64,000 nt of DNA from Patescibacteria group bacterium (GCA_018970465.1 JAGWWI010000002.1:4517-68516), one strand, 5' to 3'; shown: positions 29,898 through 60,592, numbered from the stretch's first letter. The notes: a model not told the origin generated them from the sequence alone. A program made the numbers and translations.

Positions 29898-31340
29898 TTA
29901 GGACAAGCGCGGGAAGAGGTTCTCCGGCTTCTTGTTGTGGCGCACCGCGGCGGCGATCGCGGCGGCGGTGCGGGGCATCGCGGGCGCGAGGTGCGCGGCG
30001 ATTGCGGCGAGCCGGCGCACCAGGCCCTCGATCTCGCCCCGTGCCTCCTCGCGCTCGACCGTATCGCCGCTCTTGATGCCGGCGTACGGCTTCTTGCGCG
30101 TCATGCGCCCGTCGCCCTTCCCGACGAGGTCGAAGACGAAATCGAGCGCCTCGTTGAACCTGAACGCGTCGACGGCCGCAGCGAACTCCGGCGCAATCGC
30201 CGTGTCCTCCTCCGTGAGCTCGACCGGGTGCGCGAGGTGCTCCTCGGCGAGCTTCATCACGCGCGCGACGAGGTTGCCGAGCCCGTTCACGAGGTGCGCG
30301 GTGTAGTACTCGCGGATCGTCTCGTCGGTCAGGTCGCCGTCCTCGGTCGGGCTCACGTGCCGGAGGAGGACGTAGCGCAGAGCGTCGACGCCGTAGCGGC
30401 CGATGACGTCGAACGGGTTGATCACGTTGCCGGTCGACTTGCTCATCTTCTGCCCGCCCGAGGTGATGAAGCCGTGATAGAAGACCTGATCGGTCGTCTT
30501 CACTCCGGCCGACATAAGCATCGCCTGCCACATGAGCGACTGGAAGCGCACCTGATCCTTCCCCGCGACCTGGAGCGTCCGCCCCTCGTCCCAGAATTTC
30601 TTGAAGCGACCCTCTTCGTCGGCGGGCCAGCCCAAGGTCGAGATGTAGTTCGTCAGCGCGTCGAACCACACGTACATCACCTGCGTCTCGTCGTCCGGCA
30701 CCGGGATGCCCCAGGAGAGACGCGCAGCTTCGCGCGAAATGCTGAAGTCTTCGAGGCCCTTCTTCACGAACTTGATCGCCTCTTTGCGGCGCCAGTCGGG
30801 GACGATCGCATCCTTACGCTCGAGGTACGCCAGGAGCTGCGGCTCGTACTTCGAGAAGCGGAAGAAGTAATTCTCTTCAGACACCTCCTTGAGCTCGAGC
30901 GTCGGGTGGAGCTCGCAGCGCCCTTTGACAACCTCCTTGTCCGTCTTGAAGGCCTCGCAGCCGACGCAGTAGAGGCCGGTGTAGCGCTTCTTGTAGATAT
31001 CGCCCGCGGCGGCGCAGCGGCGCCACATCTCCCGCGCAGCTTCGACGTGGCCCGGATTCGTCGTGCGGATGAACGCGTCGTAGGAGAGGTCGAACTCGGC
31101 CTTGAGCTTCTCGAACTCGGCGGCGTAATGGTCGACGTAGTCCTCGACCGGGAGCCCGGCCTTCGCCGCAGCCTCGGCGATCTTCTGCCCGTGCTCGTCG
31201 GTGCCGGTGTTGAAGAAGACCTCCTCCCCCGCTAGGCGCCAGAAGCGCGCGAGGAAGTCCGCCTGCACGAATTCAAGCGCGTGGCCAATGTGGGGATCAG
31301 CGTTTACATACGGGAGAGTCGTTGTTAAATACCTAGCCAT
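29898..31340 (-). CDS. metG: Methionyl-tRNA synthetase
   Basis: 'YLTTTLPYVNADPHIGHALEFVQAD' (HIGH) and 'KMSKSTGNVINP' (KMSKS). The antisense and frame-shifted ORFs 29569..30669 and 29937..31235 were rejected. Confidence 0.95.
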   Translation of the reverse strand: MARYLTTTLPYVNADPHIGHALEFVQADFLARFWRLAGEEVFFNTGTDEHGQKIAEAAAKAGLPVEDYVDHYAAEFEKLKAEFDLSYDAFIRTTNPGHVEAAREMWRRCAAAGDIYKKRYTGLYCVGCEAFKTDKEVVKGRCELHPTLELKEVSEENYFFRFSKYEPQLLAYLERKDAIVPDWRRKEAIKFVKKGLEDFSISREAARLSWGIPVPDDETQVMYVWFDALTNYISTLGWPADEEGRFKKFWDEGRTLQVAGKDQVRFQSLMWQAMLMSAGVKTTDQVFYHGFITSGGQKMSKSTGNVINPFDVIGRYGVDALRYVLLRHVSPTEDGDLTDETIREYYTAHLVNGLGNLVARVMKLAEEHLAHPVELTEEDTAIAPEFAAAVDAFRFNEALDFVFDLVGKGDGRMTRKKPYAGIKSGDTVEREEARGEIEGLVRRLAAIAAHLAPAMPRTAAAIAAAVRHNKKPENLFPRLS

Positions 31341-31405
31341 CCCTTGAATATAAGGCAAAAGCCCGGCGTACGCCACCGGGCTTTAATCTTGTAGCTTATG
31401 AGTCG

Positions 31406-31975
31406 TTATACCTTTTCGAACTGAACGCGTGATGAATTGTACTTGACGACGCTGCCGACACTGAATGCGGCAGCTCGCAACGCAACCTCTTCCGCTAGAG
31501 AAAGATGCTTGGCGGCAGGATCAGAACCGCAGCTGTCGTGCCGATCGCAAAGGTCGGATGTGAAATCCAGGCCTTGCTGAACAGAAAAGTCGGCACTTGA
31601 AAATGGGTCGCTGTTATCGGCTCCGAAGCACATATGTAGCCGAAGGGGCTTCCTGTTATAGGCAATTGGATTGCCATGCGGACAAAGGGCCTCAATTTCC
31701 GTCGAGACCGACTGGCAGAAGGTCCCGCGCTGCATCCCGCCGAACTTTCTCTCGTCCATCTGGATCTCACCCCAGTTGAGGTTGTGCCTGCGCACCACCC
31801 TGCCGAGGAGAGTCCCGCGTAAATGCCTGAGATCCATATGTTCATGAATATGAACACGGCCACAGACATAGCAGTACGCATTTGCATTTTCAAGTCTGCC
31901 GACTTGAAAGTCACAGCAACGGGAAAGAACACGATCTAACATGGGAGGTCTTCCTTTTCTAGTGACGTCCGTCAC
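31406..31975 (-). CDS. Hypothetical protein with HNH-nuclease-like Cys/His spacing
   Basis: 'CYVCGRVHIHEHMDLRH...RRHNLNWGE...EALCPHGN' resembles C-x2-C...H-x-H...N...LC-x-H of HNH folds. G+C is lower than the flanks. Confidence 0.45.
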   Translation of the reverse strand: MTDVTRKGRPPMLDRVLSRCCDFQVGRLENANAYCYVCGRVHIHEHMDLRHLRGTLLGRVVRRHNLNWGEIQMDERKFGGMQRGTFCQSVSTEIEALCPHGNPIAYNRKPLRLHMCFGADNSDPFSSADFSVQQGLDFTSDLCDRHDSCGSDPAAKHLSLAEEVALRAAAFSVGSVVKYNSSRVQFEKV

Positions 31976-32037
31976 TAATATAACACATTCCTTTCACTTT
32001 TCAGCAACGGCCGAAACTCGCTTTCCTGACAGTACGA

Positions 32038-33096
32038 CTACTTATATATATTCTTATGCTCGCGGCGCTTGCGCACGCCGTAGTCGGAGAGGAACTCCAA
32101 GGCCGCCGCAGCGACCGGCACCGAGAGGAGGACGCCGAGGAAGCCGGCCAAGGTCCACCCGGCGATAAGCGCGACGATGACGAGGAGGGGCGGGATGCCA
32201 ACGACCTTCTTCACGATCAGCGGGTAGATGAGGTTCGCTTCGAACTGGTTCACCACCACGTAGAGCCCGGCGACGATGAGGGCGAGCGGGAAGCCGCCCG
32301 CCGTGTAGGCGACCGCGGCCGCCGCCCCGCCCGCCATCAAGGAGCCGAAGATCGGGATGATCTCCGCGAAGGCGGTAAAGACGGCGAGCAAGAGCGCGTA
32401 CGGGATCGAGAGGATCAGGAGCCCGAGGTAGACGAGGACGCCGACGATGACCGAGAGGAGGATCTGCCCCTGCATCCACCTGCCGATCTTCCGCTGCGAG
32501 CGGCGCCAGAGGTCGACGGCGTACTCCTCGTAGGCCGCGGGGATGACGAGCCGAAGGAAGTCATCGACGCCCGTGTCGGAGAGCGCGAAGTAGAAGGAGA
32601 GCACCACGACCAGGATGAGCGAGAAGATGCCGCCGAAGAACGTCGCGACAAGGTCGACGACGCCCGAGCCGTTCGCGGTGAGCGCGCTCTGCAGCACCGC
32701 GAGCGAGGAGAGCAGGCTCTCAGCCTCGTGCGAGCCGCCGAGGAGGTTCGAGGCCTGCGCGAGGCCTGCGGAGGGCACCTGGAGCGTATTGAGATACTGC
32801 GGCACCTCGGAGAGGAAGCCCGCGGCGTCCGCGAGGATGGGCGGGAAGAAGAAGTACACGAGCGCGAAGGCCGACCCGAGCACGATGACGTACATGAGGA
32901 GGGTCGCGAAGAAGCGCGGCAGCCGGTAGCGGACGAAGAACGCAATCCCCGGCTCGATCGCCGAGGAGATCACGATCGCGGTGAGGACGAGGAGCGCGAG
33001 GTCGCGCAGCACCCAGAGGAGGTAGGCACCAAGGAGGATGAGGAGCGTCGTGACGACGCTCCCGGGGCTGATCGCGATCCGGCGCTCCGCGGGCAT
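32038..33096 (-). CDS. AI-2E family (PerM/YhhT, UPF0118) membrane transporter
   Basis: 352 aa, about 8 TM helices. 'LVLTAIVISSAIEPGIAFFVRYRLPR...' and the overall hydropathy pattern of the family. Confidence 0.75.
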   Translation of the reverse strand: MPAERRIAISPGSVVTTLLILLGAYLLWVLRDLALLVLTAIVISSAIEPGIAFFVRYRLPRFFATLLMYVIVLGSAFALVYFFFPPILADAAGFLSEVPQYLNTLQVPSAGLAQASNLLGGSHEAESLLSSLAVLQSALTANGSGVVDLVATFFGGIFSLILVVVLSFYFALSDTGVDDFLRLVIPAAYEEYAVDLWRRSQRKIGRWMQGQILLSVIVGVLVYLGLLILSIPYALLLAVFTAFAEIIPIFGSLMAGGAAAAVAYTAGGFPLALIVAGLYVVVNQFEANLIYPLIVKKVVGIPPLLVIVALIAGWTLAGFLGVLLSVPVAAAALEFLSDYGVRKRREHKNIYK

Positions 33097-33139
33097 GGGC
33101 GCATGCTAGCACGCTCCGCGCGAAGAGCGGAATCGGCCG

Positions 33140-34558
33140 TCAGGCGATCTTCTCCCTGAGGAGCGCGGGCAACTCCGCGAGTGCGACGCGCTCCTGCTCG
33201 CCCGAGTCGCGGTGGCGGAGCGTGACGGTATCAGCCAATTCCGGCTTCTCGCCGAGCGTGTTGAAGTCGATCGTGATGCAATAGGGCGTGCCGATCTCGT
33301 CCTGCCGGCGGTAGCGCTTGCCGATGTTGCCGTTGTCGTCGAAGGCTATGGCCGGGTGCACCTCACGCCGCAGGAGCGCGCGCACCTCCTTCGCCTTCGC
33401 GACTAACTCCGGCTTGTTCTTCAGGAGGGGCGAGACCATCGCCTTGACCGGGGCGAGCTTGGCCGGCAGCCGCAAGACGACGCGCGCCTCGCCCTTGCCC
33501 TGCGTAGCTTCAGCGGAGGAGGGGCCGAGGTCGTCCTCGGCGTAGGCCTTCGCGAGTACCGCAAGGAGGTGGCGCCCGAGGCCGAAGGTCGGCTCGATCG
33601 CGTGCGGCACGAATTTCTCATTCGACTCGGGGTCGAGGTAGCGCAAGTCGGCGCCCGACGCCTCGATGTGATTCTTGAGGTCGAAGTCGGTGCGATACGC
33701 AAGGCCGGCGATCTCGTCGAACTTGTGCGGGTATTTGAAATGGAAGTCGACTGTGCGCTTGGAGTAGTGCGCGCGCTCGCCGTCGGGGATTTCGACCTCG
33801 CGGATATCGCCCTGGTCGAAGCCGAGCGCCGAGAACCACGCGCGCATCTGCCCGACCCAGTACTCGAATTGTTGGCTCCAGGCGCGCTCCGGCACGAAGT
33901 ATTCGAACTCCATGATCTCAAGTTCGCGCACGCGGAAGATGAAGTCGCGCGGCGCAATCTCGTTGCGGAAGCTCCGCCCCACCTGCGCGATGCCGAACGG
34001 GAGCTTCGGGTGGTAGGTGTCGAGAATGTTCTTGAAGTTGACGAACATGCCCTGCGCGGTCTCCGGCCGCAGGTAGACGGTCGTGTCGGAGCCGTCCACC
34101 GAGCCGACGGAGGTCTTGAACATCATATTGAACTGCTGCGGGCTCGTGAGATCGTTCCCTTCCGGGCTCTTGATCCCCTTCTCGAGGATCACCTCGCCCA
34201 TCATCGCGAGCGACATGCCGGTCGGGTCGACCCCGGCGTCTTCGAGCAGATGGTCGGCGCGATAGCGCTTCTTCGTCTTCACGTCCGTGACCAGGGGGTC
34301 GTGGAAGCCGCCGACATGCCCGGACGCCTCCCAGACCTTCGGGTTCATGAGGAGCGCCGTGTCGACGCCGTACATGTCATCGCGCTCGTCGACGAACAGG
34401 CGCCACCAGAGGTTCTCGATATTCTTCTTGAGCGCGAGGCCCAAGGGGCCGTAGTCGTAGGTGCCCGCGAGGCCGCCGTAGATCTCGGAGCCGGGGTAGA
34501 TGAACCCGCGCCGTTTCGCGAGCGAGACGATCTTCTCCATCTGCGAGGCGTCGGCCAT
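33140..34558 (-). CDS. glyQS: Glycyl-tRNA synthetase, alpha2 (class II, eukaryote/archaeal-like) type
   Basis: 'KRRGFIYPGSEIYGGLAGTYDYGPLG', 'FRNEIAPRDFIFRVRELEIMEFEYF', and a C-terminal anticodon-binding domain. Confidence 0.9.
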   Translation of the reverse strand: MADASQMEKIVSLAKRRGFIYPGSEIYGGLAGTYDYGPLGLALKKNIENLWWRLFVDERDDMYGVDTALLMNPKVWEASGHVGGFHDPLVTDVKTKKRYRADHLLEDAGVDPTGMSLAMMGEVILEKGIKSPEGNDLTSPQQFNMMFKTSVGSVDGSDTTVYLRPETAQGMFVNFKNILDTYHPKLPFGIAQVGRSFRNEIAPRDFIFRVRELEIMEFEYFVPERAWSQQFEYWVGQMRAWFSALGFDQGDIREVEIPDGERAHYSKRTVDFHFKYPHKFDEIAGLAYRTDFDLKNHIEASGADLRYLDPESNEKFVPHAIEPTFGLGRHLLAVLAKAYAEDDLGPSSAEATQGKGEARVVLRLPAKLAPVKAMVSPLLKNKPELVAKAKEVRALLRREVHPAIAFDDNGNIGKRYRRQDEIGTPYCITIDFNTLGEKPELADTVTLRHRDSGEQERVALAELPALLREKIA

Positions 34559-34587
34559 GGTGCCTTCAAGCTACACGAGCGCGGCGA

Positions 34588-36477
34588 TTATTGCACTTCG
34601 GCCTTCGCGGGGTTGTAGCCCGGGTCGCCCGGCGTCTCGGTCGTGACCGCGTCGGCCGAGGCGGAGATGTTCACCCCCGCGAAGCGGTCGAACGCCGTGA
34701 AGGACGCGGGCCCCACCAAGGCCGGTGACGCCCCGCGCTGCGAGGTCGAGGGCGTGAAGGAGACCTGGAAGTAGCCCGTCGCGGCGCTCCCGGCGGCGAG
34801 GTCGCCCGCGGTCCAGGTGACGACGCGCGACTGCGGGTCGTAGGAGAAGCTGCCCTGCCCCGAGGTCTTGCCGGTGTAGTCGACATACGCGGGCAGGGTC
34901 GCGGTCACTGCCGCGCCCGCGACCGCACCGCCGCCGTCCGCGGCAGTCCACTGGATGGTGTAGGTGGTCGGCGCGCCGGCTGAGGGCGGGATGGGGCCTG
35001 TGTTCGCGAAGGGCCCGGCGGCGTGCAGGGCCGAGACCGAGAGCTCGACCGCGGTCGCGGCCTTGATCGTATCGGTCTTCGACGCGGCGACGCTCACGGC
35101 CGCGTTGTTGTCGCCCGGGACGCTGCCTGCGACCGAGGTCGTGAAGGTGACAGAGGGCGCGCGGCCGAAGGAGGAAGCTGGTACCGTCGAGAAGACGAAG
35201 GAGCCGACGCCCGAGGCGCCGGGCGCCAAGGTCGCGAGCGCCACGTCCTGATCCTTGCTGAAGGTGATCGTGTGGGTCGAGGAGTCGTAGAAGCCATTCG
35301 TCGCCCGGATCGAGGAGTAGTCGACTGCGCCGCCCGAGACCTCGACCGAGATGGTCGCGTCGTTCACCTGCGTCGAAAGCGTGTTGGTATACGAGACGGT
35401 GACGTTCTCGGTCGAGGCGGGCGCGAGGGTTGCCGAGGAGACGGGCGCGCCATTCAGAGCGAGATCCGTCTCGAGGAAGGGCGCGGTGATCGCGACCGTC
35501 GCGTCCTGCGTCATGTAGGAGACGCCGAGGCCGCCGCCCTGGCTCGCCGTCCCGATCGAGAAGTGGAACGCCTCGCTCTGCCCGTTCTGCCCGTCGAGGG
35601 TGCCCGTGAGGGTAACCGTTTTCGCGTCCCCCGGCGCCAAGGTCCCGAGCGGGATGTCGGTGCCCTGCGCGGGGAGCGAGGAGGAGGTCAGCTTGAAGCC
35701 GAAGGGGAACGCTCCCTCGACGACGACGTTATCGAGCGGCACCGTCGCGTTCGAGCGCGCCTCGAGCGTAATCGTGAACGGCTTGCCCGCAGTCGTTTGC
35801 GCGATCGTATCGACCGAGATCGAGAGCGGCGTCGAGGAGACCTTGAGCGGATATGAATATTTCTTGACGAAGGTCGAGTTCGAGCCCTTCGTGCCGTAGG
35901 AGAGCGCGATGGGGATCGCGAGCGTGTCGCCCGCGGAGCCGAAGACGACCGCCTTCACCGCGCTCGTCACCGTCTCGCCGCTCTTGATCGTGCCGAGCGC
36001 GTCATTATAGGCGACGAACGGGCTCGAGACGTCCGTCGCCGAACGGGTGCCGGGCGGGAAGTCCGCTTCGAGCGTGGCGTTCTCGAGGTCGACCGGGTTG
36101 CGGTTCGTGACCGCGATCGTCAAGGGGACGGTGTCCCCCGCCGCGATCGTCGTCGGGCCCTCGACCTGGATCGTGATGTTGTCGACCGAGACGCTGTCCC
36201 CGCCGAAGTAGATAAGGTACGCGGCAAGCACGAGCGCGAGGCCGAAGAAGGTAATCGCGCCGATGAAGAAGTAGGTTGCGAGCTTCACGTGGCGCTCGGT
36301 GACCGTTGGCGGCGCGACCGACGCGAGCGGCTTCGCCACCCCGGCCCACGCGTGCGGGAGGCGGCGCACGGCGGCTGCGAAGCGCGACGGCTTCGCGGCT
36401 GCGGGCGGCGCGGCCGCGTAGAGGCGCTCGCGCTCCTCTTCGAGCGCGCTCTTCTCTCCGTCGCTTGTGGGCGGCAT
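34588..36477 (-). CDS. Large membrane-anchored surface protein with repeated beta-sandwich (CARDB/DUF11-like) modules
   Basis: 629 aa. TM anchor 'YFFIGAITFFGLALVLAAYLIYF', then repeats such as 'ITIQVEGPTTIAAGDTVPLTIAVTNRNPVDLENATL'. Confidence 0.7.
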   Translation of the reverse strand: MPPTSDGEKSALEEERERLYAAAPPAAAKPSRFAAAVRRLPHAWAGVAKPLASVAPPTVTERHVKLATYFFIGAITFFGLALVLAAYLIYFGGDSVSVDNITIQVEGPTTIAAGDTVPLTIAVTNRNPVDLENATLEADFPPGTRSATDVSSPFVAYNDALGTIKSGETVTSAVKAVVFGSAGDTLAIPIALSYGTKGSNSTFVKKYSYPLKVSSTPLSISVDTIAQTTAGKPFTITLEARSNATVPLDNVVVEGAFPFGFKLTSSSLPAQGTDIPLGTLAPGDAKTVTLTGTLDGQNGQSEAFHFSIGTASQGGGLGVSYMTQDATVAITAPFLETDLALNGAPVSSATLAPASTENVTVSYTNTLSTQVNDATISVEVSGGAVDYSSIRATNGFYDSSTHTITFSKDQDVALATLAPGASGVGSFVFSTVPASSFGRAPSVTFTTSVAGSVPGDNNAAVSVAASKTDTIKAATAVELSVSALHAAGPFANTGPIPPSAGAPTTYTIQWTAADGGGAVAGAAVTATLPAYVDYTGKTSGQGSFSYDPQSRVVTWTAGDLAAGSAATGYFQVSFTPSTSQRGASPALVGPASFTAFDRFAGVNISASADAVTTETPGDPGYNPAKAEVQ

Positions 36478-36495
36478 GTCCGTAGTATACCGCCC

Positions 36496-37065
36496 CTAGA
36501 GGCCCGAGGCTGCGATCCCGCGATTGATGCGCGCGATCGCCTCAAGGCGCTCCGCGCGCGTGCGCGCGAGCGCTGCGGGGCTGAAGTCCGGCTCGGCCGC
36601 CTCCGCCGCGCTCTCGCCGACGCCGAACGCGGCGAGGAGGCCCTCCGCGGCGGCGAGCTCGGCGGCCTCGGCGAGCACCGGGTCGCCCTCGACCAAGGCC
36701 GCGAGGTACCGCGCGAAGAGCGCGTACGCGGCGCGCTCCGGGTGCTCGCCGGGCGAGAGCCGCAGCAGGAGCGCCCCGACCCGGCCCGCGCGCTCGCGCG
36801 CCTCGCTCGAAGCGAGGCGCGCGAACCAGTTCTCGGCGAGGACCGCCCCCGCGAGGCGCCAGCCCTCCGCTCCTGCGACCAGGACCACATCGCTCTCGCA
36901 GAAGGTCGCGAGAGCGTGCGCGAGCTTCGACTCTTGGCGCCGGAGGCCCGCAGCGTATGCGTGGACGACCCCGAGGTCGTCGGTCACGATCGAGAGGCGC
37001 GCGTGCGCCTCGCCGAACGGCGCCCGGCCGAGAACGATCCCGCGCGTCGAATACTTATGCCGCAT
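36496..37065 (-). CDS. recO: DNA repair protein RecO
   Basis: N-terminal OB-fold 'TRGIVLGRAPFGEAHARLSIVTDDLGVVHAYAAGLRR'. Lies immediately downstream of ileS. Confidence 0.65.
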   Translation of the reverse strand: MRHKYSTRGIVLGRAPFGEAHARLSIVTDDLGVVHAYAAGLRRQESKLAHALATFCESDVVLVAGAEGWRLAGAVLAENWFARLASSEARERAGRVGALLLRLSPGEHPERAAYALFARYLAALVEGDPVLAEAAELAAAEGLLAAFGVGESAAEAAEPDFSPAALARTRAERLEAIARINRGIAASGL

Positions 37066-37077
37066 CCTTCGAGTCCC

Positions 37078-40000
37078 TCAAGACGCGTCGCGGACGAGGT
37101 CGAAGCGCGCCTGGCCGGTCGAGAGCTCGACGGCGTACTTCCCCTCCGGCGCCATCTGCGCATGCGCCTTGTCGGCGGGCGCGAGGCCTTCGCTCTTCCG
37201 CGCCTCCGCGACCGCACGCGCGAGTTCGCGCTCGTCGCCCTCTTTGATGAGCTCGGGAGTAAGCGCGGTGTCGAGCGCGAGCGCTTCGCCCTCCACGACC
37301 TCTTTCACATTCACCTCCTCGGCGAGCACCGCTGCGAGCTCCGCAGACAACACCTCAGGAATCGTGAGCTTCGCGAGCGGCTGACGCACTTTCATCCCCG
37401 CTTTTTGACGGAGCATGAGGGCCTCCGAGGCGAGCGAGCGCACCTGCGCCATCTGCTCGACCAGCGCGTCGTCTACCCCCTGCGCAGTCGGCCACGCAGC
37501 GAGGTGCACGCTCACGGGATCATTCTCGCCACGCACGCGGCGATACACATCCTCGGCGAGAAACGGCGCCAAGGGCGCGAAGAGGCGCGCAGAAACGTTG
37601 AGCGTCTCGCGCAAGGTCTCGAGCGCGGCGGCGTCGCCGCCGCGTGCCCGCTCGCGAACGCGCCGCACATACCACTGCGAGAGATCTTCGAAGAGCGCGT
37701 CGACGGTGCGCGAGGCGGTGAAGAGATCGTAGGCGTCGAACGCGGCCGTTGCCTCGCGCACGGCAGCGGCCGTGCGCGCCGCCATCCAGCGGTCGATGAC
37801 CTGCTTCTCGTCCGCGTTCTCTGCCGCATCCTGTCCGCCGGAGGCGGATCCGCCTCCGGTGGAGAAGAGTTCATAGAATTTCGCGCTGTTGTCGAGCCAG
37901 TTGAGGGCCTTCGCCGCTTCGCGGACGGTGCGCTCGTCGTAATTCTTGGAGTCGCCCGCGCCCGTGACGCTGTACATCCAGAGCCGCAAGGCGTCGACGC
38001 CCCACTTCTCGATCTCGACCCACGGGTCGACGACGTTGCCCTTCGACTTGCTCATCTTCGCCCCCTCCGCATCGAGGAGGTGGCCGAGCGAGATCACGTT
38101 CTCGTAGGAGCGGCCGCGGCCCATCAGGACGCCGACGGCAAGCAGCGTGTAGAACCACCCGCGCGTCTGGTCGATCGCCTCGCTGATATAGTCGGCCGGG
38201 TACGCGACGCGCGCGAGAAACGCGTCGAGCGATTCGCCTCCGGCGCGCTCCTTCGCGCTCTGCGCGAACGGCATCGCGCCCGAGTCGAACCACACGTCCA
38301 TCACCTCCGGCACCCGCCGGAGCTCCGTGCCGTTATCCGAAAGGAGCACCACGTCGTCGACATACGGCCGGTGCAGGTCGAGCTCGAAATCGGCGTTATG
38401 CGGCAAGGAGACGAACGGGAGCTCGCGCGGCACACCGTGCGGCACCACGCCCACAGTCGCGTCGACGATCTTCGCAGAAGCGGCGGCATCTGCGCCCTCG
38501 ACGACCGGGAGCAGGGATTCGAACGCGACGCCGTGCGTCACGATGAGGACGCCCTCGCCTGCGCGCGCCTGCTCGACTTCGTAGAGGAACGCGCCGAATC
38601 GCCGCTTCGCATCGAGGTAGCTCTCGCCGCCCGGGAAGGGCGCGTCATACGCGAGCGTCTTGCGGAACGCGAGGAACTCGTCGTACGCCTCCCGCCCGCC
38701 GAAGGAGCCGAAGTTGAGCTCCCGCAGCCGCTCGTCGTAGCGGATCGCTGCCGGGTCGAGCCCGAGCTTCTCGGCGACAAGCTCCGCAGTCTCGCGGGTG
38801 CGCAGCAGAGGCGAAGCGTATATCGCCGTGATCCCCTTGCCAGCGAGCGCCTCCGCGCCCGCCGCGACCTGCCCGCGCCCCTTCTCGGTGAGCCGGTTCG
38901 TCGTGTCGCCGTCGCTGTCGAGGAGGCCGCGCACATTCCCCTCCGACTCGCCGTGGCGCATCACGAAGTAGCGGTTGCCGCTCTTCTTGGTGCGCTTCTT
39001 CAACTCGTCGATCGAGCCCACGACGATGCGCTCGCTGCCGTCCGTGCTCTGCCACACCGGCAACGGCGTGCCCCAGTAGCGCTCGCGCGAGATCGCCCAA
39101 TCCTTCACCCCCGAGAGCCACTCACCCATCCGCCCGTCGCGGATGTACGCCGGTTCCCAGTGGATCTGCTTGTTCTCGCCGACGAGCGTGTCGCGCACAT
39201 CCTGCATGCGGATGTACCAGCTGTCGCGCGCGTAGTAGATGAGCCGCGTCTTGCAGCGCCAGCAGAAGGGGTAGGTGTGCGTGTACGTCTGCTTCGAAAA
39301 TACGCGCTCGCGGCTCTGGAGGTCTTTGAGAATCTCCACCGCCGTCTCCTCGTTGACGACGGACTTGCCCTCGAGGAATCCCGTGCCGGGGATGAACACG
39401 CCCTCCGGATTGACGAGATGCACCTTCGGGAGCCCGACCTTGGTGCCGAGGTCGAAGTCCTCCTGGCCGTACATGACCGCTGTGTGGACAACGCCAGTGC
39501 CCTCCTCGGTCGTGACGAAGTCTGCGGCGTACACCTTGAACGCGTTGGCGAACTTCGCCTTCTCGCTCTCGGGCGCGAGCGCTTTGGCGTACGGATACAG
39601 CGGTTCGTATTCGAGACCGACTAGATCAGAGGCCCCGCAGATATGAGTAATTTCTGAATCTTCCTTTCCGAGCCCTTTGAAAAACGCAGCAGATGCGATG
39701 AGGGAACTATCTCCATCCGCCCACGCAACGTATCTCTCAGTCTCTTTCAAAGGATTGTTCGCGTCGAGAACCGCGAGCGCCACGTTCCCCGGCAGAGTCC
39801 ACGGCGTCGTCGTCCACGCAAGGAGGTACACGTCGCCATCGAGACCTAGTTTCTCTTTTGCGTTGGTGACCTTGAACTTCGCCGTCACCGTAAGGTCCTT
39901 CACGTCCGCGTATCCTTGCGCGAGCTCGTGCGACGAGAGCGCGGTGCCGTCGTGCGGGCACCAGGGCACGACGCGGTAATCCTTATAGAGCCGGCCGTCG

Positions 40001-40551
40001 TCTGCCACATGCTTCACGATGTGCCAGAGCACCTCCATGTAGGGCACGTCGAACGTGAAGTACGCCTTCGACGCGTCCACCCAGTAGCCGATGCGCTTGG
40101 TGAAGCGCGCCCAGAGGTCGATATAGGTGAGCACGCTCTCCCGGCACTTCTGGTTGAACGCGGCGATGCCGTACGCCTCGATATCTTTCTTACTCGAGAA
40201 GCCGAGCTGCTTCTCGACCTCGATCTCGACGGGGAGCCCGTGCGTGTCCCAGCCGGCGCGGCGCGCGACGCGGTAGCCGCGCATCGTCTTATAGCGCGGG
40301 ATCGCGTCCTTGAAGGCCCTCGACTCGAGGTGGTGGATGCCCGGCTTCCCGTTCGCGGTCGGCGGCCCTTCGTAGAAGGTGAACTCGCCGAGCGGCGCGT
40401 CTTTGTCCAAAGACTGCTCGAAGACGCGCTCGCGCTCCCAAAACGCGAGTATCTCCTCCTCCTTGGCCGCCGTAGCGGATTTCTCCGTGGTGACGGCGCG
40501 CTTCGCAGCATCCGACTTCTCCCCTTCTGACATGACAAAAATATAGGCCAT
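37078..40551 (-). CDS. ileS: Isoleucyl-tRNA synthetase with an inserted histidine-phosphatase (PGAM-like) domain and a GGGSASGG insert
   Basis: '[13 protein letters not shown]', '[29 protein letters not shown]', '[14 protein letters not shown]', '[12 protein letters not shown]'. Inserted block '[13 protein letters not shown]...[17 protein letters not shown]...VLIVTHGV' (RHG / TH motifs). ORF track 37078..41019 includes about 155 codons of Arg/Ser-rich read-through upstream of the plausible starts [12 protein letters not shown]. Confidence 0.9.
37835..37862. repeat. 28-bp palindrome copy 2 (ccgccggaggcggatccgcctccggtgg), inside ileS
   Basis: 27 of 28 positions identical to the tatD copy. Encodes [10 protein letters not shown] in frame within IleRS. 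Confidence 0.9.
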
Positions 40552-40729
40552 TACGCGATAAAAAGCTAAAAGCCGCGCTATGGCGGCTCCAGCCCGAAGA
40601 ACGGCGAGGGTGGTATCGCGCTTTTGAAAAATGAAAAACGCGAGCCCGACGCGTCTTCTAAGGAACAGGTCAGGTCGTATCTTATAGCACCCTCTCCGTG
40701 CGTTCAATGTGGATAAGCGCTCTCTGTCC

Positions 40730-42403
40730 TCACATCCGCTCCGGCGCGGGGATGCCGAGGAGGGCGAGGCCGTTCGCCATCGTGTTGGCGAAGGCGCGTG
40801 CGACGCGCATCTTATACTCCTCCTCCGGCGAGCCGAGGACCTGCTCGCTCGCGTAGAAGCTATTCCACGCGCCCGCGAGCTCGGTGAGGTAGCTCGTGAG
40901 GATATTCGGCACGAGAAGCTTCGCCGCGCGCGCAGCGACCTCCGGGTAGTGGAGGATGAGCCGCTCGATCGCGTAGGGCTCTTGCGGCTCTTCTTTGCCG
41001 CCCGCCTCTTCCGATTCATACGACAGGATTTTCACCGCGCGCACGAGCGCGTACTGGAGGTACGGCCCCGAGTCGCCCTCCAAGGAGAGCGACTTCTCTG
41101 GTTCGAAGACGATGTCCGCCCCCGGCGCCTGCCGCAGGATCATGTACTTGATCGCGCCTACCGCGACCTGCTCGGCGATGAGCGGATCGGCGTTCTTCTC
41201 GCTCGCCCTTTTGACCACGTCCTCGATGAGGCTTGCGGCGGTGATTACATTCCCCTCTCGCGAGCTCATCTTGCCGGTCGTCAATTTCATAAATCCGTAC
41301 GGCACGTGCTGCGTCTTACCGCCCAGGAGCGGCGCGAGCTCCTTCAACGCTTCGAGAATCACTGCGAAATAACTCGCCTGCTCCTGCGCGGTAGTGACCA
41401 CGGACTTATCCGAAGGCCAGCGCTCCTCCTTCAGGAACGCGAGGCCCATATCCTTCGCTTCGTACGTGGGAGTACCTTGCGATGTAATAAAGACGCGCGT
41501 ATGCAGACCCCGCTTCTCGCCTTTGTAGACGACTGCGCCTTCGCTCTCCTCGAACACGCCTCTCGCCAAGCCGTCGCGCACGACCTTAAGGCCGATCGGC
41601 GCGGTCTCGCTCTCGAAGAAGTAGTAATCGAACTTGGTGCCGAGGACTTTGTAGACCTCTTCGAAAGCCGCGAGCGAGACGTCGCGCCCCTTGCGCCAGA
41701 GCTCCATAAGCGCGCCGCCCTCAGTAAGCGTTAGGGGATCCCCCAGAGCTTGGTAAACCGCGCGGTTGATCGCGTCAATCTCCCCCTTCGCCTCGGGGTC
41801 GTCTTCATATGCGCGATTGCCGGCCACGTACGCCTCGCTGATTTCTGTCGCCGTCGTCGGTTCCGTAATGCCAGCCTTCTGCAAACCCCAGAGCGCTTTA
41901 GCGACGTGCGGGCCAACGTCGCCTTGATAATTGGCGCGCACGATCGTTGCCCCTTCGTTCTGGGTCAGTCTGGCGACCGATTCGCCAATCGTGTTGCCCA
42001 TCACATGCCCGATGTGCATTTCTTTAAAAGGATTCGGCTGCGTGTACTCGATCATCACGCGCTTTCCCGCCTCCGCCTTGCCCTTCCCCCAATCCTCACC
42101 CTTGGCTGCCGCCTCGGCGGTCGAGGCGACCACCTCGCCCGCGGCAAGCGTGATGTTGATGAAGCCGGGGCCGGCGACCTCGACCTTCTCGACCGCGTCG
42201 CCAAGCAGTTCTTTCATCTTCGTGGCAAGCTCCTCCGCCAACTCTCGCGGATTCTTCCCCAGTGCCTTCGCCGCGACCATCGCCGCGTTCGTCGCGTAGT
42301 CGCCATGCGCGGCCTCGGTCGGCCGCTCGAGCGTGAAGGCGGCGCCCGCCGCGCCCGCCGCCGCGAGCGCCTCCCCTACCGCGTCCCGTATCCGCTCCTC
42401 CAT
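40730..42403 (-). CDS. argS: Arginyl-tRNA synthetase
   Basis: '[25 protein letters not shown]' (HIGH-like) and '[11 protein letters not shown]'. Has the N-terminal additional domain and a C-terminal DALR-like region. Confidence 0.9.
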
Positions 42404-42448: not shown

Positions 42449-43639
42449 CTATCGGGCTCGCGCCTTTTTCATCGTATGCCTGAAGCTCTCATCGAAGAGC
42501 TTGTAATAATCCGCGTAGACATACTTCTGGCCGTAATCGGCCTTACCGAGCGGCTCTAGGATCCGCAACTCTTCGAGACGGTCGATGACCTTATAGGCAC
42601 CAGGCGCGGAGAATCTCGTCCACTCACGTATCTCCGCGACGCCTATGATCGGCTGGCCGAATAGTCGATGCACGACATTCAGCGTGGACTCTGCCGATTT
42701 CTTGCCGAGCTTCTGCACCTTTGCGGTATCGCGCTCTCGCAGGGCGGTGATCGCGGCACATGTCTCGATAGCGGATTCGGCGACCTCCGCAACACCCTCG
42801 AGGAAGAACCCGAGCCAGCCTTCGATGTCCCCGTCTTCGTCGTGGTACTCGTTCAGTTTCTGATAGTAGAGCTTCTGGTGCTGCTTGAAGTAACTCGCGA
42901 GATAGAGCACTGGATGTTCAAGCAGGCCCGCATGATGGATATAGAGGGATACGAGCATACGGCCGGTACGGCCATTCCCGTCCGTGAACGGATGGATGGT
43001 CTCGAATTGCGCATGAATGAATCCTGCCTTGATGAGCGAGGGGTAGTCATCTTTCGCATGAATGAACCTCTCAAGATCGCTAAGCGCCGCACGCATGTCC
43101 GATGGGGCCGGCGGGACGAAGAACGCGTCATGCGGCGTCTTTCCTCCGATCCAGTTCTGCGAACGGCGGAACTCGCCCGGATACGCGTGCTGCGTAGCGC
43201 GAGCGCCCGCCATGAGCTTCTCGTGTATCTCGCGAATGAGTCGGAGCGAAATGGGGAGTGTCTTCGAACGCGCGAGGCCGTAGTTCGCCGCGTGGACGTA
43301 GTGAAGAATATCGTCGACATCCGGCGGGAGCTGAGATTTCTCTTCAGTAACGGGCGCCGCAATCACGTCTTGAAGCGTCGCTTGCGTGCCCTCGATCTGA
43401 CTAGAGAACACTGCGTCCTTGTTGACGAACATCTGCAAGAAATAATCCTTGTCCGGCAAGAGGCGCATGGTGCCATCGAGCTTCCCCACGAGCCGTATCG
43501 CCTCCTCATGCTTCTTGTAGAGCTTAGGCGTAATGGCGAAGCCGCCCGGCGGAGGGAATGGGTAAGGTGTGAAGCTCCGCCAGCCTTCCGGCTGTTTGAC
43601 GAGGCGTCCTATATTCGGCCGTTGGTTGCTCGGGTTCAT
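42449..43639 (-). CDS. Fic/Doc-family protein (AMPylator-type) with a C-terminal wHTH
   Basis: Fic motif 'HPFTDGNGRTGRML'. 396 aa. Region of lower G+C. Antisense ORF 42668..43942 rejected. Confidence 0.85.
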   Translation of the reverse strand: MNPSNQRPNIGRLVKQPEGWRSFTPYPFPPPGGFAITPKLYKKHEEAIRLVGKLDGTMRLLPDKDYFLQMFVNKDAVFSSQIEGTQATLQDVIAAPVTEEKSQLPPDVDDILHYVHAANYGLARSKTLPISLRLIREIHEKLMAGARATQHAYPGEFRRSQNWIGGKTPHDAFFVPPAPSDMRAALSDLERFIHAKDDYPSLIKAGFIHAQFETIHPFTDGNGRTGRMLVSLYIHHAGLLEHPVLYLASYFKQHQKLYYQKLNEYHDEDGDIEGWLGFFLEGVAEVAESAIETCAAITALRERDTAKVQKLGKKSAESTLNVVHRLFGQPIIGVAEIREWTRFSAPGAYKVIDRLEELRILEPLGKADYGQKYVYADYYKLFDESFRHTMKKARAR

Positions 43640-53098: not shown

Positions 53099-53115
53099 GA
53101 TACCAAACCGCCACG

Positions 53116-53189
53116 GGGGCGACGTGTGGGACTTGAACCCACGACCGCCTGGACCACAACCAGGAGCTCTACCAACTGAGCTAACGCCG
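53116..53189 (-). tRNA. tRNA-His (GUG) with encoded G-1
   Basis: Reverse complement 'g gcggcgt ta gctc agttggta gagc t cctgg ttGTGgt ccagg cggtc gtggg ttcaagt cccac acgtcgc c'. Canonical arms, G-1 opposite C73, one G-U in the acceptor stem. Confidence 0.85.
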
Positions 53190-53259
53190 CCATGCATCTC
53201 GCACAGCGAGGTTATAACACATTATCTTACTCATTGCTTGCGGCGTCAGCGCGCGTGAG

Positions 53260-55299: not shown

Positions 55300-55307
55300 A
55301 TCTTCAG

Positions 55308-55391
55308 TGCCCAGGAGAGGACTCGAACCTCCAATCCCTTGCGGGAACCACCACCTCAAGGTGGCGCGTCTGCCAATTTCGCCACCTGGGC
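55308..55391 (-). tRNA. tRNA-Leu (GAG), class II with long variable arm
   Basis: Reverse complement 'gcccagg t ggcg aaattggcag acgc g ccacc ttGAGgt ggtgg ttcccgcaagggatt ggagg ttcgagt cctct cctgggc a'. CCA not encoded. Confidence 0.8.
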
Positions 55392-59708: not shown

Positions 59709-59749
59709 ATCGAGAATAACGCAGACTGTAGCACGAGAGTTTCTCCTGG

Positions 59750-59822
59750 TGCGCCCTGAGGGACTCGAACCCCCGACCTTCCCGGTGTAAACGGGTTGCT
59801 CTACCAACTGAGCTAAGGGCGC
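59750..59822 (-). tRNA. tRNA-Val (UAC)
   Basis: Reverse complement 'gcgccct ta gctc agttggta gagc a acccg ttTACac cggga aggtc ggggg ttcgagt ccctc agggcgc a'. Confidence 0.8.
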
Positions 59823-59823
59823 C

Positions 59824-60586: not shown

Positions 60587-60592
60587 CTTGTG

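What the first reader, a model, noticed from the sequence alone, without database searches (positions are those of the whole stretch)
37078..40551. Isoleucyl-tRNA synthetase carrying an in-frame histidine-phosphatase (phosphoglycerate-mutase-like) domain
**What the sequence shows**
- The ileS reading frame is continuous.
- Between '[25 protein letters not shown]' and '[11 protein letters not shown]...[11 protein letters not shown]' it contains about 190 aa with the diagnostic histidine-phosphatase signatures:
  - '[13 protein letters not shown]' (RHG catalytic motif)
  - '[17 protein letters not shown]'
  - 'VLIVTHGV'
- This block sits in the connective-peptide region of the catalytic domain, before DVWFDSG and KMSKS.

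**Why it matters**
- Class I aaRS insertions at this site are usually zinc knuckles or editing modules.
- A complete PGAM/cobC-type phosphatase fold inside IleRS is not an architecture I recognise.

**Possible roles**
- A built-in regulatory or proofreading-like phosphatase, for example acting on a phosphorylated or adenylated intermediate or an (p)ppGpp-like nucleotide.
- Alternatively, a domestic insertion tolerated in a surface loop.
Basis: partly seen in the sequence, partly recalled or inferred. Interest (0 to 1): 0.72.

Follow-up and report, generated by a model that had tools for sequence, protein, structure and literature searches.

The report
Isoleucyl-tRNA synthetase with built-in histidine phosphatase
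The enzyme that charges tRNA with isoleucine in this ultra-small (Patescibacteria/CPR) bacterium really does carry a complete, apparently active phosphatase inside its catalytic domain; the design is shared by many related species, I found no paper on it, and its purpose is unknown.

Summary
One uninterrupted minus-strand ORF (37078..40551) encodes a type-2 IleRS. Its CP3 subdomain holds a 200-aa histidine phosphatase (HP; Pfam His_Phos_1, E=8e-36).

- **Site:** the insert replaces a 5-residue loop of T. thermophilus IleRS.
- **Not an artefact:** the identical protein occurs on 4 contigs. All 120 closest homologues and at least 71 species-level Parcubacteria genomes have the same architecture.
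- **Catalytic residues:** the insert is the least conserved segment, yet R532, H533, R584, E611 and H673 are invariant.
- **Free-standing form:** in some related lineages the same phosphatase is a separate gene directly upstream of an insert-less ileS, in the same ArgRS-IleRS-RecO synteny. Its ORF boundaries equal the insert boundaries.
- **Other sites and hosts:** other IleRSs carry HP at other sites or in two copies. In Gracilibacteria/Peregrinibacteria, ValRS carries 1-4 HP copies, mostly also in CP3.
- **Literature:** no paper describing this was found.

HP looks like a catalytically competent accessory partner of IleRS and ValRS, working in cis or in trans. Its fold is closest to small-molecule phosphatases (PspA, GpgP, PhoE). 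The substrate is unknown. I rank PPi or a nucleotide-type ligand first, at low confidence. I class it as a new variant of a known kind.

The parts
37078..40551 (-). ileS coding sequence (IleRS type 2 with inserted phosphatase). 1157 aa from the first ATG; the likely true start is M7 at 40533 (1151 aa).
   Evidence: ORF and translation. TIGR00392 scores 770.7 bits against a cut-off of 621.4. The identical 1151-aa NCBI protein P0001 carries 4 accessions. The AF2 model has pLDDT 89.8 and pTM 0.85, and its best fold matches are PmIleRS2 8c8v and Tth 1ile.
40330..40341 (-). Class I signature motif in the non-canonical form GIHH (GXHH), aa 71-74.
   Evidence: Sequence. GXHH is the variant linked to mupirocin hyper-resistance in IleRS2 (PMC10485003). 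Most Parcubacteria IleRS in the survey carry GXHH or AXHH.
39268..39915 (-). CP1 editing domain (aa ~213-428), with the TTTPWT motif at 39796..39813.
   Evidence: phmmer matches to isolated IleRS editing-domain structures 1wk8 and 1wny. The motifs [11 protein letters not shown] and GTGVVH...EDFD are present.
39070..39099 (-). CP2-CP3 linker [10 protein letters not shown] (aa 485-494). In yeast IleRS this segment lines the pocket for the tRNA CCA end.
   Evidence: Sequence. The homologous linker ARDWNVSRNRYWG forms part of the reveromycin / tRNA 3'-end pocket (PMC7955072).
38983..39069 (-). N-terminal half of CP3 (aa 495-523): a beta-hairpin plus a helix, without the zinc cysteines of the Thermus enzyme.
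   Evidence: Alignment to 1ILE. DSSP of the model gives E499-501, E508-510 and H514-520. CP3 definition from PMC7191050.
38383..38982 (-). Inserted histidine-phosphatase (HP) domain, aa 524-723. The Pfam His_Phos_1 core is aa 529-692 (38476..38967). The C-terminal tail LPHNADFE also occurs at the C-terminus of the closest free-standing homologues.
38953..38958 (-). R532-H533 of the RHG motif (nucleophilic histidine).
   Evidence: Invariant in 120 homologues. R-H is kept in nearly all of 425 related HP domain instances.
38800..38802 (-). R584, the second phosphate-binding arginine (SPxxR motif).
   Evidence: Invariant.
38719..38721 (-). E611, the general acid/base (RLxE motif). The family-specific residues D606 and R608 lie just upstream.
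   Evidence: Invariant in 120 sequences and 94% in the wide set. R608 is 87-98% conserved here against 27% in generic stand-alone HPs.
38533..38535 (-). H673, the second catalytic histidine (THG motif).
   Evidence: Invariant.
38299..38382 (-). C-terminal half of CP3 (aa 724-751: [28 protein letters not shown]).
   Evidence: Aligns to Tth 488-515. Strands E735-737 and E743-746.
38044..38058 (-). KMSKS motif (aa 832-836). DVWFDSG lies at 38278..38298.
   Evidence: Sequence; invariant in the family.
37801..37863 (-). Disordered Gly/Ser-rich loop [21 protein letters not shown] (aa 897-917). The equivalent loop is an alternative HP insertion site in other IleRSs.
   Evidence: pLDDT below 50 for aa 901-908. 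P0312, P0201, P0267, P0256 and P0285 carry an HP between the residues equivalent to query ~882 and ~917.
37372..37794 (-). Anticodon-binding domain (aa 920-1060).
   Evidence: Pfam Anticodon_1, E=2.5e-22.
40730..42403 (-). argS (ArgRS), directly upstream on the same strand. In lineages with a free-standing HP, the HP gene sits between argS and ileS.
   Evidence: Pfam. Synteny across loci.
36496..37065 (-). recO-like gene directly downstream, followed by a DUF11-repeat protein (34588..36477). This is the conserved synteny marker.
   Evidence: Pfam. Synteny in most of 80 related loci.

Best explanation
**Shown**
- The gene encodes a bifunctional protein: a complete type-2, editing-competent IleRS with the GXHH signature variant.
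- A whole ~200-aa branch-1 histidine phosphatase of the PhoE/PspA/GpgP/CobC-like small-enzyme type is inserted at the tip of its CP3 subdomain.
- The insertion is old and is the standard state of IleRS in Parcubacteria/Paceibacteria.
- The phosphatase keeps its full catalytic pentad under strong purifying selection.
- The same phosphatase lineage also exists as a separate gene immediately upstream of an insert-less ileS, at other loops of IleRS, in tandem copies, and in CP3 of ValRS in another CPR lineage.

**Inferred**
- HP is an active phosphohydrolase that works as an accessory partner of IleRS and ValRS. It does so in cis when inserted and in trans when operon-encoded, much as editing modules exist in cis and trans forms.
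- CP3 begins directly after the linker that lines the pocket for the tRNA 3' end. This places HP at the rim of the aminoacylation cleft.

**Mechanism I commit to (inference, about 0.25-0.3 on its own)**
- H533 attacks a terminal phosphoryl group of a small, anionic, nucleotide-type ligand or product of the aminoacylation reaction.
- Pyrophosphate is my first candidate; a ribose-3'-phosphate or pyrophosphate, or a nucleoside polyphosphate, is the alternative.
- This forms a phospho-histidine intermediate, which is then hydrolysed with E611 as the acid/base.
- The effect would be to clear a product or inhibitor and favour charging.
For: **Architecture is real**
- establish the ORF, the domains and the insertion site.
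- Independent support: the identical protein occurs on 4 contigs with 4 NCBI accessions.
- 120 of 120 closest clusters carry PF00133 plus PF00300.
- 71 species-representative genomes have the order N-part, HP, C-part at the same site, at 34-63% identity.
- 75 of the 150 closest 50%-identity cluster representatives of the insert have IleRS or ValRS flanks.

**Selection on catalysis**
- The insert has the lowest mean column identity (0.58 against 0.88 for the Rossmann parts), yet R532, H533, R584, E611 and H673 are invariant.
- The pentad is kept in nearly all of 425 domain instances. In the wide set, conservation is confined to the catalytic core plus N526, D606 and R608.

**Fold**
- The full-length model has pTM 0.85, with pLDDT 92-98 across the insert and its junctions.

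**Functional linkage**
- Five of five close free-standing homologues examined (P0121, P0122, P0126, P0130 and the L078 gene) lie directly upstream of an insert-less ileS on the same strand, in the ArgRS-[HP]-IleRS-RecO-DUF11 synteny.
- Three more distant stand-alone HPs do not.
- The free ORF boundaries equal the insert boundaries.
- The free HP of L078 groups with the inserted HPs of L047 and L048, and its IleRS is sister to that of L048.

**Recurrence**
- HP occurs at other IleRS sites and in two copies.
- 75 of 120 ValRS relatives in Gracilibacteria/Peregrinibacteria carry 1-4 HPs, and 77 of 92 domain instances lie in CP3.

**Position**

**Pointers towards a small anionic substrate**
- The fold is metabolite-phosphatase-like with a full cap.
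- Family-specific R608 sits next to E611.
- The cap sequence is variable.
- The domain is acidic, with no RNA-binding-like charge shift.
- Tandem intact copies occur.
Against: - There is no biochemical evidence, and the substrate is a guess.
- Coordinates of the AF2 model were not available, so I could not measure the distance or orientation of the HP active site relative to the Ile-AMP site, the KMSKS loop or a docked tRNA.
- Tethering gives little kinetic benefit for a freely diffusing small molecule.
- I could not test whether these genomes lack a conventional pyrophosphatase.
- HP can be absent without replacement nearby: L077 has the same CP3 flanks joined by a 12-aa linker. IleRS therefore does not need HP structurally.
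- Only one synthetase per lineage carries HP, although PPi is produced by all synthetases.
- In ValRS, several clades have lost the Glu and the second His (patterns RHRSN and RHRAN), so catalysis is not always retained.
- HP-less ValRS genes show no adjacent HP gene.
- The trees used for the fusion/fission direction are rough neighbour-joining trees.
Confidence: 0.5

Rival explanations
1. Hitch-hiking housekeeping enzyme. HP is an ordinary metabolite phosphatase (for example a phosphoserine-, sugar-phosphate- or PhoE-like enzyme) whose gene lay next to ileS in the ancestor. It was captured into a permissive surface loop. It acts independently of aminoacylation, and the fusion only secures co-expression with the translation apparatus in a tiny genome.
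For: - The closest folds are all small-molecule phosphatases.
- The domain is acidic, like ordinary cytosolic enzymes.
- It works as a free gene in some lineages and can be lost from IleRS (L077).
- The insertion site is not fixed.
- The host differs between lineages: IleRS in one, ValRS in the other.
- CP3 is a variable, surface-exposed subdomain used for other add-ons, such as zinc in Thermus and LARS1 docking in human IARS1.
- Degenerate copies in ValRS fit a ratchet in which the domain cannot be removed once it is part of the fold.
Against: - Among the 150 closest cluster representatives, the only fusion partners found are IleRS and ValRS.
- The association has been re-made or kept through several independent rearrangements: CP3, two other IleRS loops, the ValRS CP3 and CP2 regions, and upstream operon genes.
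- Distant stand-alone HPs are not next to ileS.
- No substrate-specificity residues typical of a dedicated metabolic enzyme are conserved in the cap.
- All named NCBIfam enzyme models score far below their cut-offs.
Confidence: 0.25
2. Macromolecular repair or regulatory phosphatase. HP removes a blocking phosphate from something held by the synthetase. One candidate is a 3'-phosphorylated or pyrophosphorylated tRNA CCA end, such as is made by toxic RelA/SpoT-homologue enzymes. Another is a phosphorylated residue of the synthetase itself, such as HipA-type kinase toxins place on other synthetases. This would be a 'phospho-proofreading' module analogous to cis and trans editing domains.
For: - Tethering matters most for macromolecular substrates, and the domain is repeatedly tethered to the enzyme.
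- Insertion converges on CP3, right after the linker that lines the CCA pocket, in both IleRS and ValRS.
- Specificity determinants within HP are few, as expected if the host presents the substrate.
- The cis and trans forms parallel editing factors.
Against: - The surface is acidic.
- To my knowledge, no histidine phosphatase is known to act on RNA ends.
- A generic tRNA-end toxin would hit all tRNAs, yet only one synthetase per lineage carries HP.
- Tandem copies are hard to explain with a stoichiometric substrate.
- No kinase or toxin partner was seen next to the gene. A Fic gene lies two genes upstream, but its link is untested.
Confidence: 0.15
3. Non-catalytic role. HP serves as a structural replacement or enlargement of CP3, or as a ligand-sensing allosteric module that binds a phosphorylated metabolite, rather than as an enzyme.
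For: - In ValRS, whole clades have lost the general acid and the second histidine but keep R-H-R, the phosphate-binding part.
- The junctions are rigid and confidently modelled.
- The zinc site of CP3 is lost in the query clade.
Against: - In IleRS the complete pentad, including the acid/base Glu, is invariant or nearly so across sequences of 34-68% identity.
- L077 shows that CP3 functions without HP.
- L047 keeps the zinc cysteines together with HP.
Confidence: 0.08
4. Artefact. A chimeric assembly or an undetected frameshift joins a separate phosphatase gene to ileS.
For: Nothing specific. A few related loci (L046, L075, L085) show IleRS split over two frames, which shows that such errors occur in MAGs.
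Against: - IleRS sequence continues in frame on both sides of the insert.
- The identical protein occurs in 4 assemblies.
- About 190 orthologues share the architecture.
- GC3 matches the flanks.
- The single-chain model is confident.
Confidence: 0.01

Closest known systems
Type-2 isoleucyl-tRNA synthetase (IleRS2) with the GXHH signature variant. References: Thermus thermophilus 1ILE, Priestia megaterium 8C8U-8C9D, and the Deinococcus enzyme in PMC10485003.
   Same: - Full-length homology and fold: phmmer E about 1e-204 and 1e-203, and Foldseek TM up to 0.78-0.90 on the target.
- The CP1 editing domain, KMSKS, the anticodon-binding domains and the GXHH motif (here GIHH) are all present.
   Different: - A 200-aa phosphatase sits in the CP3 loop, where the reference enzymes have 1-5 residues.
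- The CP3 zinc cysteines of the Thermus enzyme are absent.
- Neither IleRS evolution paper that I read mentions such an insert.
Small broad-specificity branch-1 histidine phosphatases: PhoE of Geobacillus stearothermophilus (1EBB/1H2E), PspA phosphoserine phosphatase (4IJ5), GpgP (6S2Q) and CobC (6E4B).
   Same: - The best sequence hit in the PDB is PhoE, E=7e-13.
- Same catalytic pentad and similar size (about 200 aa).
   Different: - Only 21-27% identity.
- No named enzyme model reaches its cut-off: cobC 77 against 163, dPGM_arch 71 against 225, PspA 58 against 350.
- It is inserted inside another enzyme, or encoded directly upstream of it.
- Family-specific residues N526, D606 and R608.
Cis and trans editing modules of synthetases (ProRS INS domain / free YbaK and ProX; AlaRS editing domain / free AlaX). 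This is an analogy drawn from my own knowledge.
   Same: An accessory catalytic module is found either inserted in the synthetase at lineage-specific positions or as a free-standing protein. Here the free form is encoded next to the synthetase gene.
   Different: - The module is a phosphohydrolase, not an aminoacyl-ester hydrolase.
- No substrate is known.
- The CP1 editing domain of this IleRS is present as well.
IleRS with an extra enzymatic domain: NCBIfam NF040702, 'isoleucine--tRNA ligase, N-acetyltransferase domain-containing'.
   Same: It is a curated precedent for an IleRS carrying an unrelated catalytic domain.
   Different: The domain is different (GNAT against histidine phosphatase). 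The query scores 279 bits against a cut-off of 1999, so it is not a member.
Bifunctional proteins containing a histidine-phosphatase domain: Rv2228c RNase H/acid phosphatase (PRK07238) and mycobacterial MutT1/Rv2985, a Nudix plus HP protein (9CXX).
   Same: - An HP domain is fused to a nucleic-acid or nucleotide enzyme.
- PRK07238 is the best NCBIfam hit for the insert, at 82 bits.
   Different: - Those are end-to-end fusions, not an insertion within a catalytic domain.
- The scores are far below cut-off (82 against 326).
- The partner enzymes are different.

Membership tests
Isoleucyl-tRNA synthetase (class Ia, type 2) | Whole-protein match to the curated ileS equivalog model, above its cut-off. 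| tested here: met
   TIGR00392 scores 770.7 bits against a cut-off of 621.4, in two stretches split by the insert.
Isoleucyl-tRNA synthetase (class Ia, type 2) | Class I signature motifs HIGH and KMSKS. | tested here: met
   KMSKS is present at aa 832-836. HIGH is present as GIHH, the GXHH variant documented as functional in IleRS2.
Isoleucyl-tRNA synthetase (class Ia, type 2) | CP1 editing domain with the Thr-rich motif, plus an anticodon-binding domain. | tested here: met
   [11 protein letters not shown] and GTGVVH..EDFD are present. aa 213-428 match editing-domain structures 1wk8 and 1wny. Pfam Anticodon_1 gives E=2.5e-22.
Isoleucyl-tRNA synthetase (class Ia, type 2) | Isoleucine-specific aminoacylation of tRNA-Ile. 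| not testable with these tools
   Requires an enzyme assay.
Histidine phosphatase superfamily, branch 1 (Pfam PF00300) | Profile match above the gathering threshold. | tested here: met
   123.9 bits against 21.7, E=8.2e-36, aa 529-692, covering profile positions 2-166 of 194.
Histidine phosphatase superfamily, branch 1 (Pfam PF00300) | Catalytic residues: the RHG nucleophile His with its Arg, a second Arg, the Glu acid/base and a second His. | tested here: met
   R532, H533, R584, E611 and H673 are present and invariant in 120 homologues. They are kept in nearly all of 425 related domains.
Histidine phosphatase superfamily, branch 1 (Pfam PF00300) | The alpha/beta fold of the superfamily. | tested here: met
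   [not shown]
Histidine phosphatase superfamily, branch 1 (Pfam PF00300) | Phosphohydrolase or mutase activity through a phospho-histidine intermediate. | not testable with these tools
   Requires an enzyme assay.
Cofactor-dependent phosphoglycerate mutase (dPGM) proper | Match to the curated dPGM equivalog models above their cut-offs. | tested here: not met
   dPGM_arch scores 70.9 against 225, GpmB 64.9 against 261, and PRK01295 47.9 against 316. 'PGAM-like' describes the fold only.
Alpha-ribazole phosphatase CobC | Match to TIGR03162 or PRK15004 above cut-off. | tested here: not met
   77.3 against 162.9, and 45.8 against 250.
Acquired mupirocin-resistance IleRS (MupA/MupB) | Match to NF000257 or NF000258 above cut-off. 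| tested here: not met
   641.8 and 608.1 bits against a cut-off of 1900. This is homology to type-2 IleRS only.
IleRS with GNAT domain (NF040702) | Match above cut-off, including the acetyltransferase domain. | tested here: not met
   279.4 against 1999, with no GNAT Pfam hit.

The most novel reading that the evidence does not exclude
The phosphatase is a previously unrecognised kind of synthetase-associated quality-control or repair module, a form of 'phospho-proofreading'. Working in cis (inserted in CP3) or in trans (the operon partner), it would remove a blocking phosphate or pyrophosphate. The target would be either the 3' end of tRNA or the catalytic loops of IleRS or ValRS. This would make these CPR synthetases self-repairing against phosphotransferase toxins from hosts, competitors or phages.
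Probability: 0.15. Interest if true: 0.9.

Novelty: new variant of a known kind. Interest (0 to 1): 0.7.

Why it matters
Aminoacyl-tRNA synthetases are among the best-studied enzymes, and their lineage-specific add-on domains have repeatedly revealed new biology, such as editing, signalling and resistance. Three points stand out here.

- **Scale:** a whole bacterial radiation (Parcubacteria/Paceibacteria) carries an apparently active phosphatase inside the catalytic domain of an essential synthetase. A second CPR lineage does the same in ValRS, mostly at the same subdomain. Sister lineages keep the phosphatase as an operon partner.
- **Implication:** this recurrent coupling predicts a phosphate-bearing substrate or regulator of aminoacylation that is not part of the textbook reaction scheme, at least in these minimal, host-dependent cells.
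- **Testability:** the question can be addressed directly with recombinant protein.

There are practical consequences too. NCBI product names downgrade many of these proteins to 'class I tRNA ligase family protein'. The GXHH motif also predicts high intrinsic mupirocin resistance.

Tried and rejected
- **Geometry of the fusion:** the AF2 model is confident, but no coordinate file is exposed to the scripts. I could not measure active-site distances or dock a tRNA.
- **AFDB search:** a Foldseek search of AFDB, to survey annotated examples, was unavailable.
- **Literature:** ten full-text searches were run; seven targeted the fusion (IleRS or aaRS with histidine phosphatase, phosphoglycerate mutase, Patescibacteria, Parcubacteria or Pfam accessions) and found no description of it. 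One apparent hit (PMC13622651) was irrelevant. A search about pyrophosphatase in Parcubacteria gave nothing usable.
- **Operon link for ValRS:** two HP-less ValRS loci have no adjacent HP gene. One has a 234-aa HP 5 kb away, next to GAPDH, which is probably the glycolytic mutase.
- **RNA-binding signature:** inserted HP domains are as acidic as free ones, so there is no charge shift.
- **Recent horizontal acquisition:** rejected, because the GC3 of the insert equals that of the flanks and the insert co-diverges with the host protein.
- **A second HP gene in the window:** none found.
- **dPGM, CobC, PspA or SixA identity of the insert:** all below curated cut-offs.
- **Intein or mobile-element reading:** rejected. 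The insert is a plain enzyme domain with no splicing or endonuclease motifs in the Pfam results.
- **Co-evolution analysis of interdomain contacts:** not attempted, because about 190 sequences are too few for 1157 columns.

Full report

Yes. The minus strand carries one open frame from 41019 to 37078. From the ATG at 40551 it translates into 1157 residues without a stop. An identical NCBI protein starts six residues later, at M7 (40533).

- Pfam finds the class I synthetase catalytic domain, His_Phos_1 at residues 529-692 (E=8.2e-36, 123.9 bits against a cut-off of 21.7) and the anticodon-binding domain, all on this single polypeptide.
- NCBIfam's ileS equivalog model scores 770.7 bits against a cut-off of 621.4, in two stretches separated by the phosphatase.
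- GC3 of the insert (0.89) matches the flanks (0.85-0.87).

**2. Where exactly is the insert?**

phmmer against PDB sequences aligns query 30-523 to T. thermophilus IleRS 13-482, and query 724-1052 to residues 488-820. Against P. megaterium IleRS2 the break is 478/480. About 200 residues (aa 524-723; window 38383..38982) therefore replace a loop of 1-5 residues.

- The published domain boundaries put this loop in the CP3 subdomain. In the Thermus enzyme CP3 carries a zinc motif (PMC7191050). The zinc cysteines are absent here.
- CP3 begins right after the CP2-CP3 linker (here [10 protein letters not shown]). In yeast IleRS this linker lines the pocket occupied by the tRNA 3' end and by reveromycin A (PMC7955072).
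- CP3 is also a surface used for protein docking in human IARS1 (PMC13439101).
- The synthetase is otherwise complete: the CP1 editing motifs, KMSKS and the C-terminal domains are present. The class I signature motif has the non-canonical form GIHH. This GXHH variant is functional in type-2 IleRS and confers mupirocin hyper-resistance (PMC10485003).
- An AlphaFold2 model of the whole protein is confident (pLDDT 89.8, pTM 0.85), with pLDDT 92-98 through the insert and both junctions. Its best structural matches are PmIleRS2 and Tth IleRS.

**3. Is the phosphatase intact?**

- In an alignment of 120 homologues, the insert is the least conserved segment. Its mean column identity is 0.58, against 0.88-0.89 for the Rossmann-fold parts.
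- Even so, R532, H533, R584, E611 and H673 are invariant. These are the nucleophile, the two arginines, the acid/base and the second histidine of branch-1 histidine phosphatases.
- Across 425 related domain instances the pentad is kept almost without exception.
- In the 69 most divergent inserted copies, the conserved positions are the superfamily core plus N526, D606 and R608, which are family-specific.
- The isolated domain models at pLDDT 95.1.
- No curated enzyme model (dPGM, CobC, PspA, GpmB) reaches its cut-off. 'PGAM/CobC-like' therefore describes the fold, not the function.

**4. How widespread is it?**

- The window protein is identical to one found on four contigs and deposited under four NCBI accessions, named only 'class I tRNA ligase family protein [Patescibacteria group bacterium]'.
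- All 120 best database clusters (61-68% identity) carry PF00133 plus PF00300.
- A scan of one genome per species returned 71 loci (L006-L076) with the order IleRS-N, HP, IleRS-C at the same site, down to 34% identity over the region. The organism labels include Parcubacteria, Paceibacteria, and Zambryski-, Nomura-, Yanofsky-, Lipton-, Colwell-, Giovannoni-, Sungii- and Magasanikbacteria.
- Kaiserbacteria and Gracilibacteria both belong to the Patescibacteria group.
- Of the 150 closest 50%-identity cluster representatives of the insert, 75 have IleRS or ValRS flanks.
- The insert is thus the norm for IleRS in this radiation and cannot be an assembly artefact.

**5. The free-standing form.**

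Searching with the insert alone found about 205-aa stand-alone phosphatases at 47-52% identity.

- Every one whose context I could read lies directly upstream of an insert-less ileS, on the same strand. These are P0122, P0126, P0121, the more distant P0130, and one more gene in L078.
- They sit within the same ArgRS-[HP]-IleRS-RecO-DUF11 synteny as the window.
- Three more distant stand-alone phosphatases from other bacteria are not near ileS.
- The free genes begin at the motif that starts the insert: M..SRGNTYYVLRHG against [13 protein letters not shown]. The closest ones (P0121-P0126) also end at the motif that ends it..VN.DFE against LPHNADFE. The insert is therefore a whole ORF.
- Sister lineages show both states with clean boundaries. 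L047 is fused and keeps the CP3 zinc cysteines. L078 has a free gene plus a short loop.
- L077 has the fused clade's flanks joined by a 12-residue linker and has no HP nearby.
- In rough neighbour-joining trees, the free and HP-less forms nest inside insert-bearing clades. The L078 free HP groups with the inserted HPs of L047 and L048.
- I read this, tentatively, as an ancestral insertion followed by occasional fission or loss.

**6. Other sites, other host.**

- Some IleRSs carry the phosphatase elsewhere. The sites are after DVWFDSG, or in the loop between the stem-contact fold and the anticodon-binding domain. The latter loop is the disordered Gly/Ser stretch at 37801..37863 in the query.
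- Others carry two copies. All of these still score as ileS.
- Two representatives turned out to be ValRS. A follow-up search showed that 75 of the 120 closest ValRS clusters carry one to four HP domains; the names attached are Gracilibacteria and Peregrinibacteria.
- 77 of the 92 HP instances lie between WxISRQxxWG and DxWFDS, which is again CP3. Eight lie just before, in the CP2 region.
- These ValRS copies are only about 25% identical to the query's HP.
- 60 of 92 keep the pentad, but some clades have lost the Glu and the second His.
- HP-less ValRS genes have no adjacent HP gene.

**7. What does it do?**

What is shown is an intact catalytic machinery under purifying selection, and a persistent physical or operon linkage to IleRS and ValRS through several rearrangements. 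What follows is inference.

- **Active partner.** I conclude that HP is an active phosphohydrolase that functions as an accessory partner of these two closely related class Ia synthetases, in cis or in trans.
- **Small, anionic substrate.** Four observations point this way rather than to protein or RNA: the fold with a full cap; the extra conserved arginine next to the acid/base; the lack of conserved specificity residues in the cap; and the acidic surface. Tandem intact copies fit as well.
- **First guess.** My first guess is pyrophosphate or another terminal phosphate on a nucleotide-type ligand of the aminoacylation site. Cleavage of terminal phosphoanhydrides by histidine phosphatases has precedent, from my own knowledge, in the HP domain of MutT1/Rv2985 and in AppA. 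My confidence in the substrate itself is low (about 0.25-0.3).
- **Main rivals.** One is an unrelated housekeeping phosphatase that merely hitch-hikes. The other is a macromolecular repair or regulatory phosphatase acting on a phosphorylated tRNA 3' end or on the synthetase itself.
- **For hitch-hiking:** variable sites, clean loss in L077, and different hosts in different lineages.
- **Against hitch-hiking:** the exclusive and repeated choice of IleRS and ValRS as partners.
- **For the repair idea:** the convergence on CP3 next to the CCA pocket.
- **Against the repair idea:** the fold and the charge data.
- **Limits.** I could not obtain model coordinates, or whole-genome gene content, to discriminate further.

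**8. Novelty.**

IleRS and histidine phosphatases are both textbook families, and synthetases with appended domains are a known theme. NCBIfam even has an IleRS-with-GNAT model.

A histidine phosphatase inside the catalytic domain of IleRS or ValRS, with an operon-encoded trans form, is not described in any paper I could find. That includes two recent IleRS evolution studies. The architecture is visible only as automatic Pfam hits.

I class it as a new variant of a known kind, and score it as of high interest to the synthetase field, even though the mechanism is unresolved.

Noticed in passing
window 40330..40341 (-): The class I HIGH signature of this IleRS is GIHH. This GXHH swap was shown to give IleRS2 mupirocin hyper-resistance. 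Most Parcubacteria IleRS surveyed have GXHH or AXHH, while one subclade has canonical HYGH.
   Followed up: partly
related proteins P0326, P0187, P0334-P0441 (not in the window): ValRS of Gracilibacteria/Peregrinibacteria carries 1-4 histidine-phosphatase domains, mostly in CP3. Some clades have degenerate catalytic residues (RHRSN or RHRAN), and lengths reach 1626 aa.
   Followed up: partly
window 37801..37863 (-): A low-complexity loop, [21 protein letters not shown], is modelled as disordered. The equivalent loop is where other IleRSs (P0312, P0201, P0267, P0256, P0285) carry a phosphatase domain.
   Followed up: partly
window 42449..43639 (-): A Fic/DOC-family protein (Fic_N plus Fic, with the motif HPFTDGNGRTGR) is encoded directly upstream of argS, two genes from the IleRS-phosphatase. 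Fic enzymes modify proteins with AMP or phosphate. No link to the phosphatase was tested.
   Followed up: no
window 29901..42403 (-): A synthetase-rich stretch on one strand: MetRS (29901..31382), a class II synthetase (33143..34570), IleRS and ArgRS, interleaved with a recO-like gene and a DUF11-repeat protein. The ArgRS-IleRS-RecO-DUF11 order is conserved in most related loci.
   Followed up: partly
window 40552..41019 (-): The ileS reading frame stays open for 156 codons upstream of the first ATG and overlaps the 3' end of argS. In this 65% GC genome, long spurious ORFs occur on all frames, for example a 1111-aa ORF on the opposite strand at 36289..39624.
   Followed up: no
L046, L075, L085: In these related loci the IleRS gene is split over two reading frames. 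This could be frameshifts, assembly errors or genuine pseudogenes. It was not examined.
   Followed up: no
proteins P0210, P0222, P0231, P0242 and similar (~410-430 aa): Stand-alone proteins made of two tandem histidine-phosphatase domains are among the closest relatives of the insert. P0222, the one scanned, passes the CobC cut-off only because the two domain scores add up.
   Followed up: no
NCBI product names of P0001, P0003, P0006 and others: Many insert-bearing IleRS and ValRS are named only 'class I tRNA ligase family protein', not isoleucine- or valine--tRNA ligase. Presumably the insert breaks the naming rule.
   Followed up: no
window 4100..4176, 53115..53191, 55307..55391, 59747..59908, 60592..60664: Six tRNA genes (Met, His, Leu x2, Val, Arg) were found in the window. 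No tRNA-Ile gene is present.
   Followed up: no
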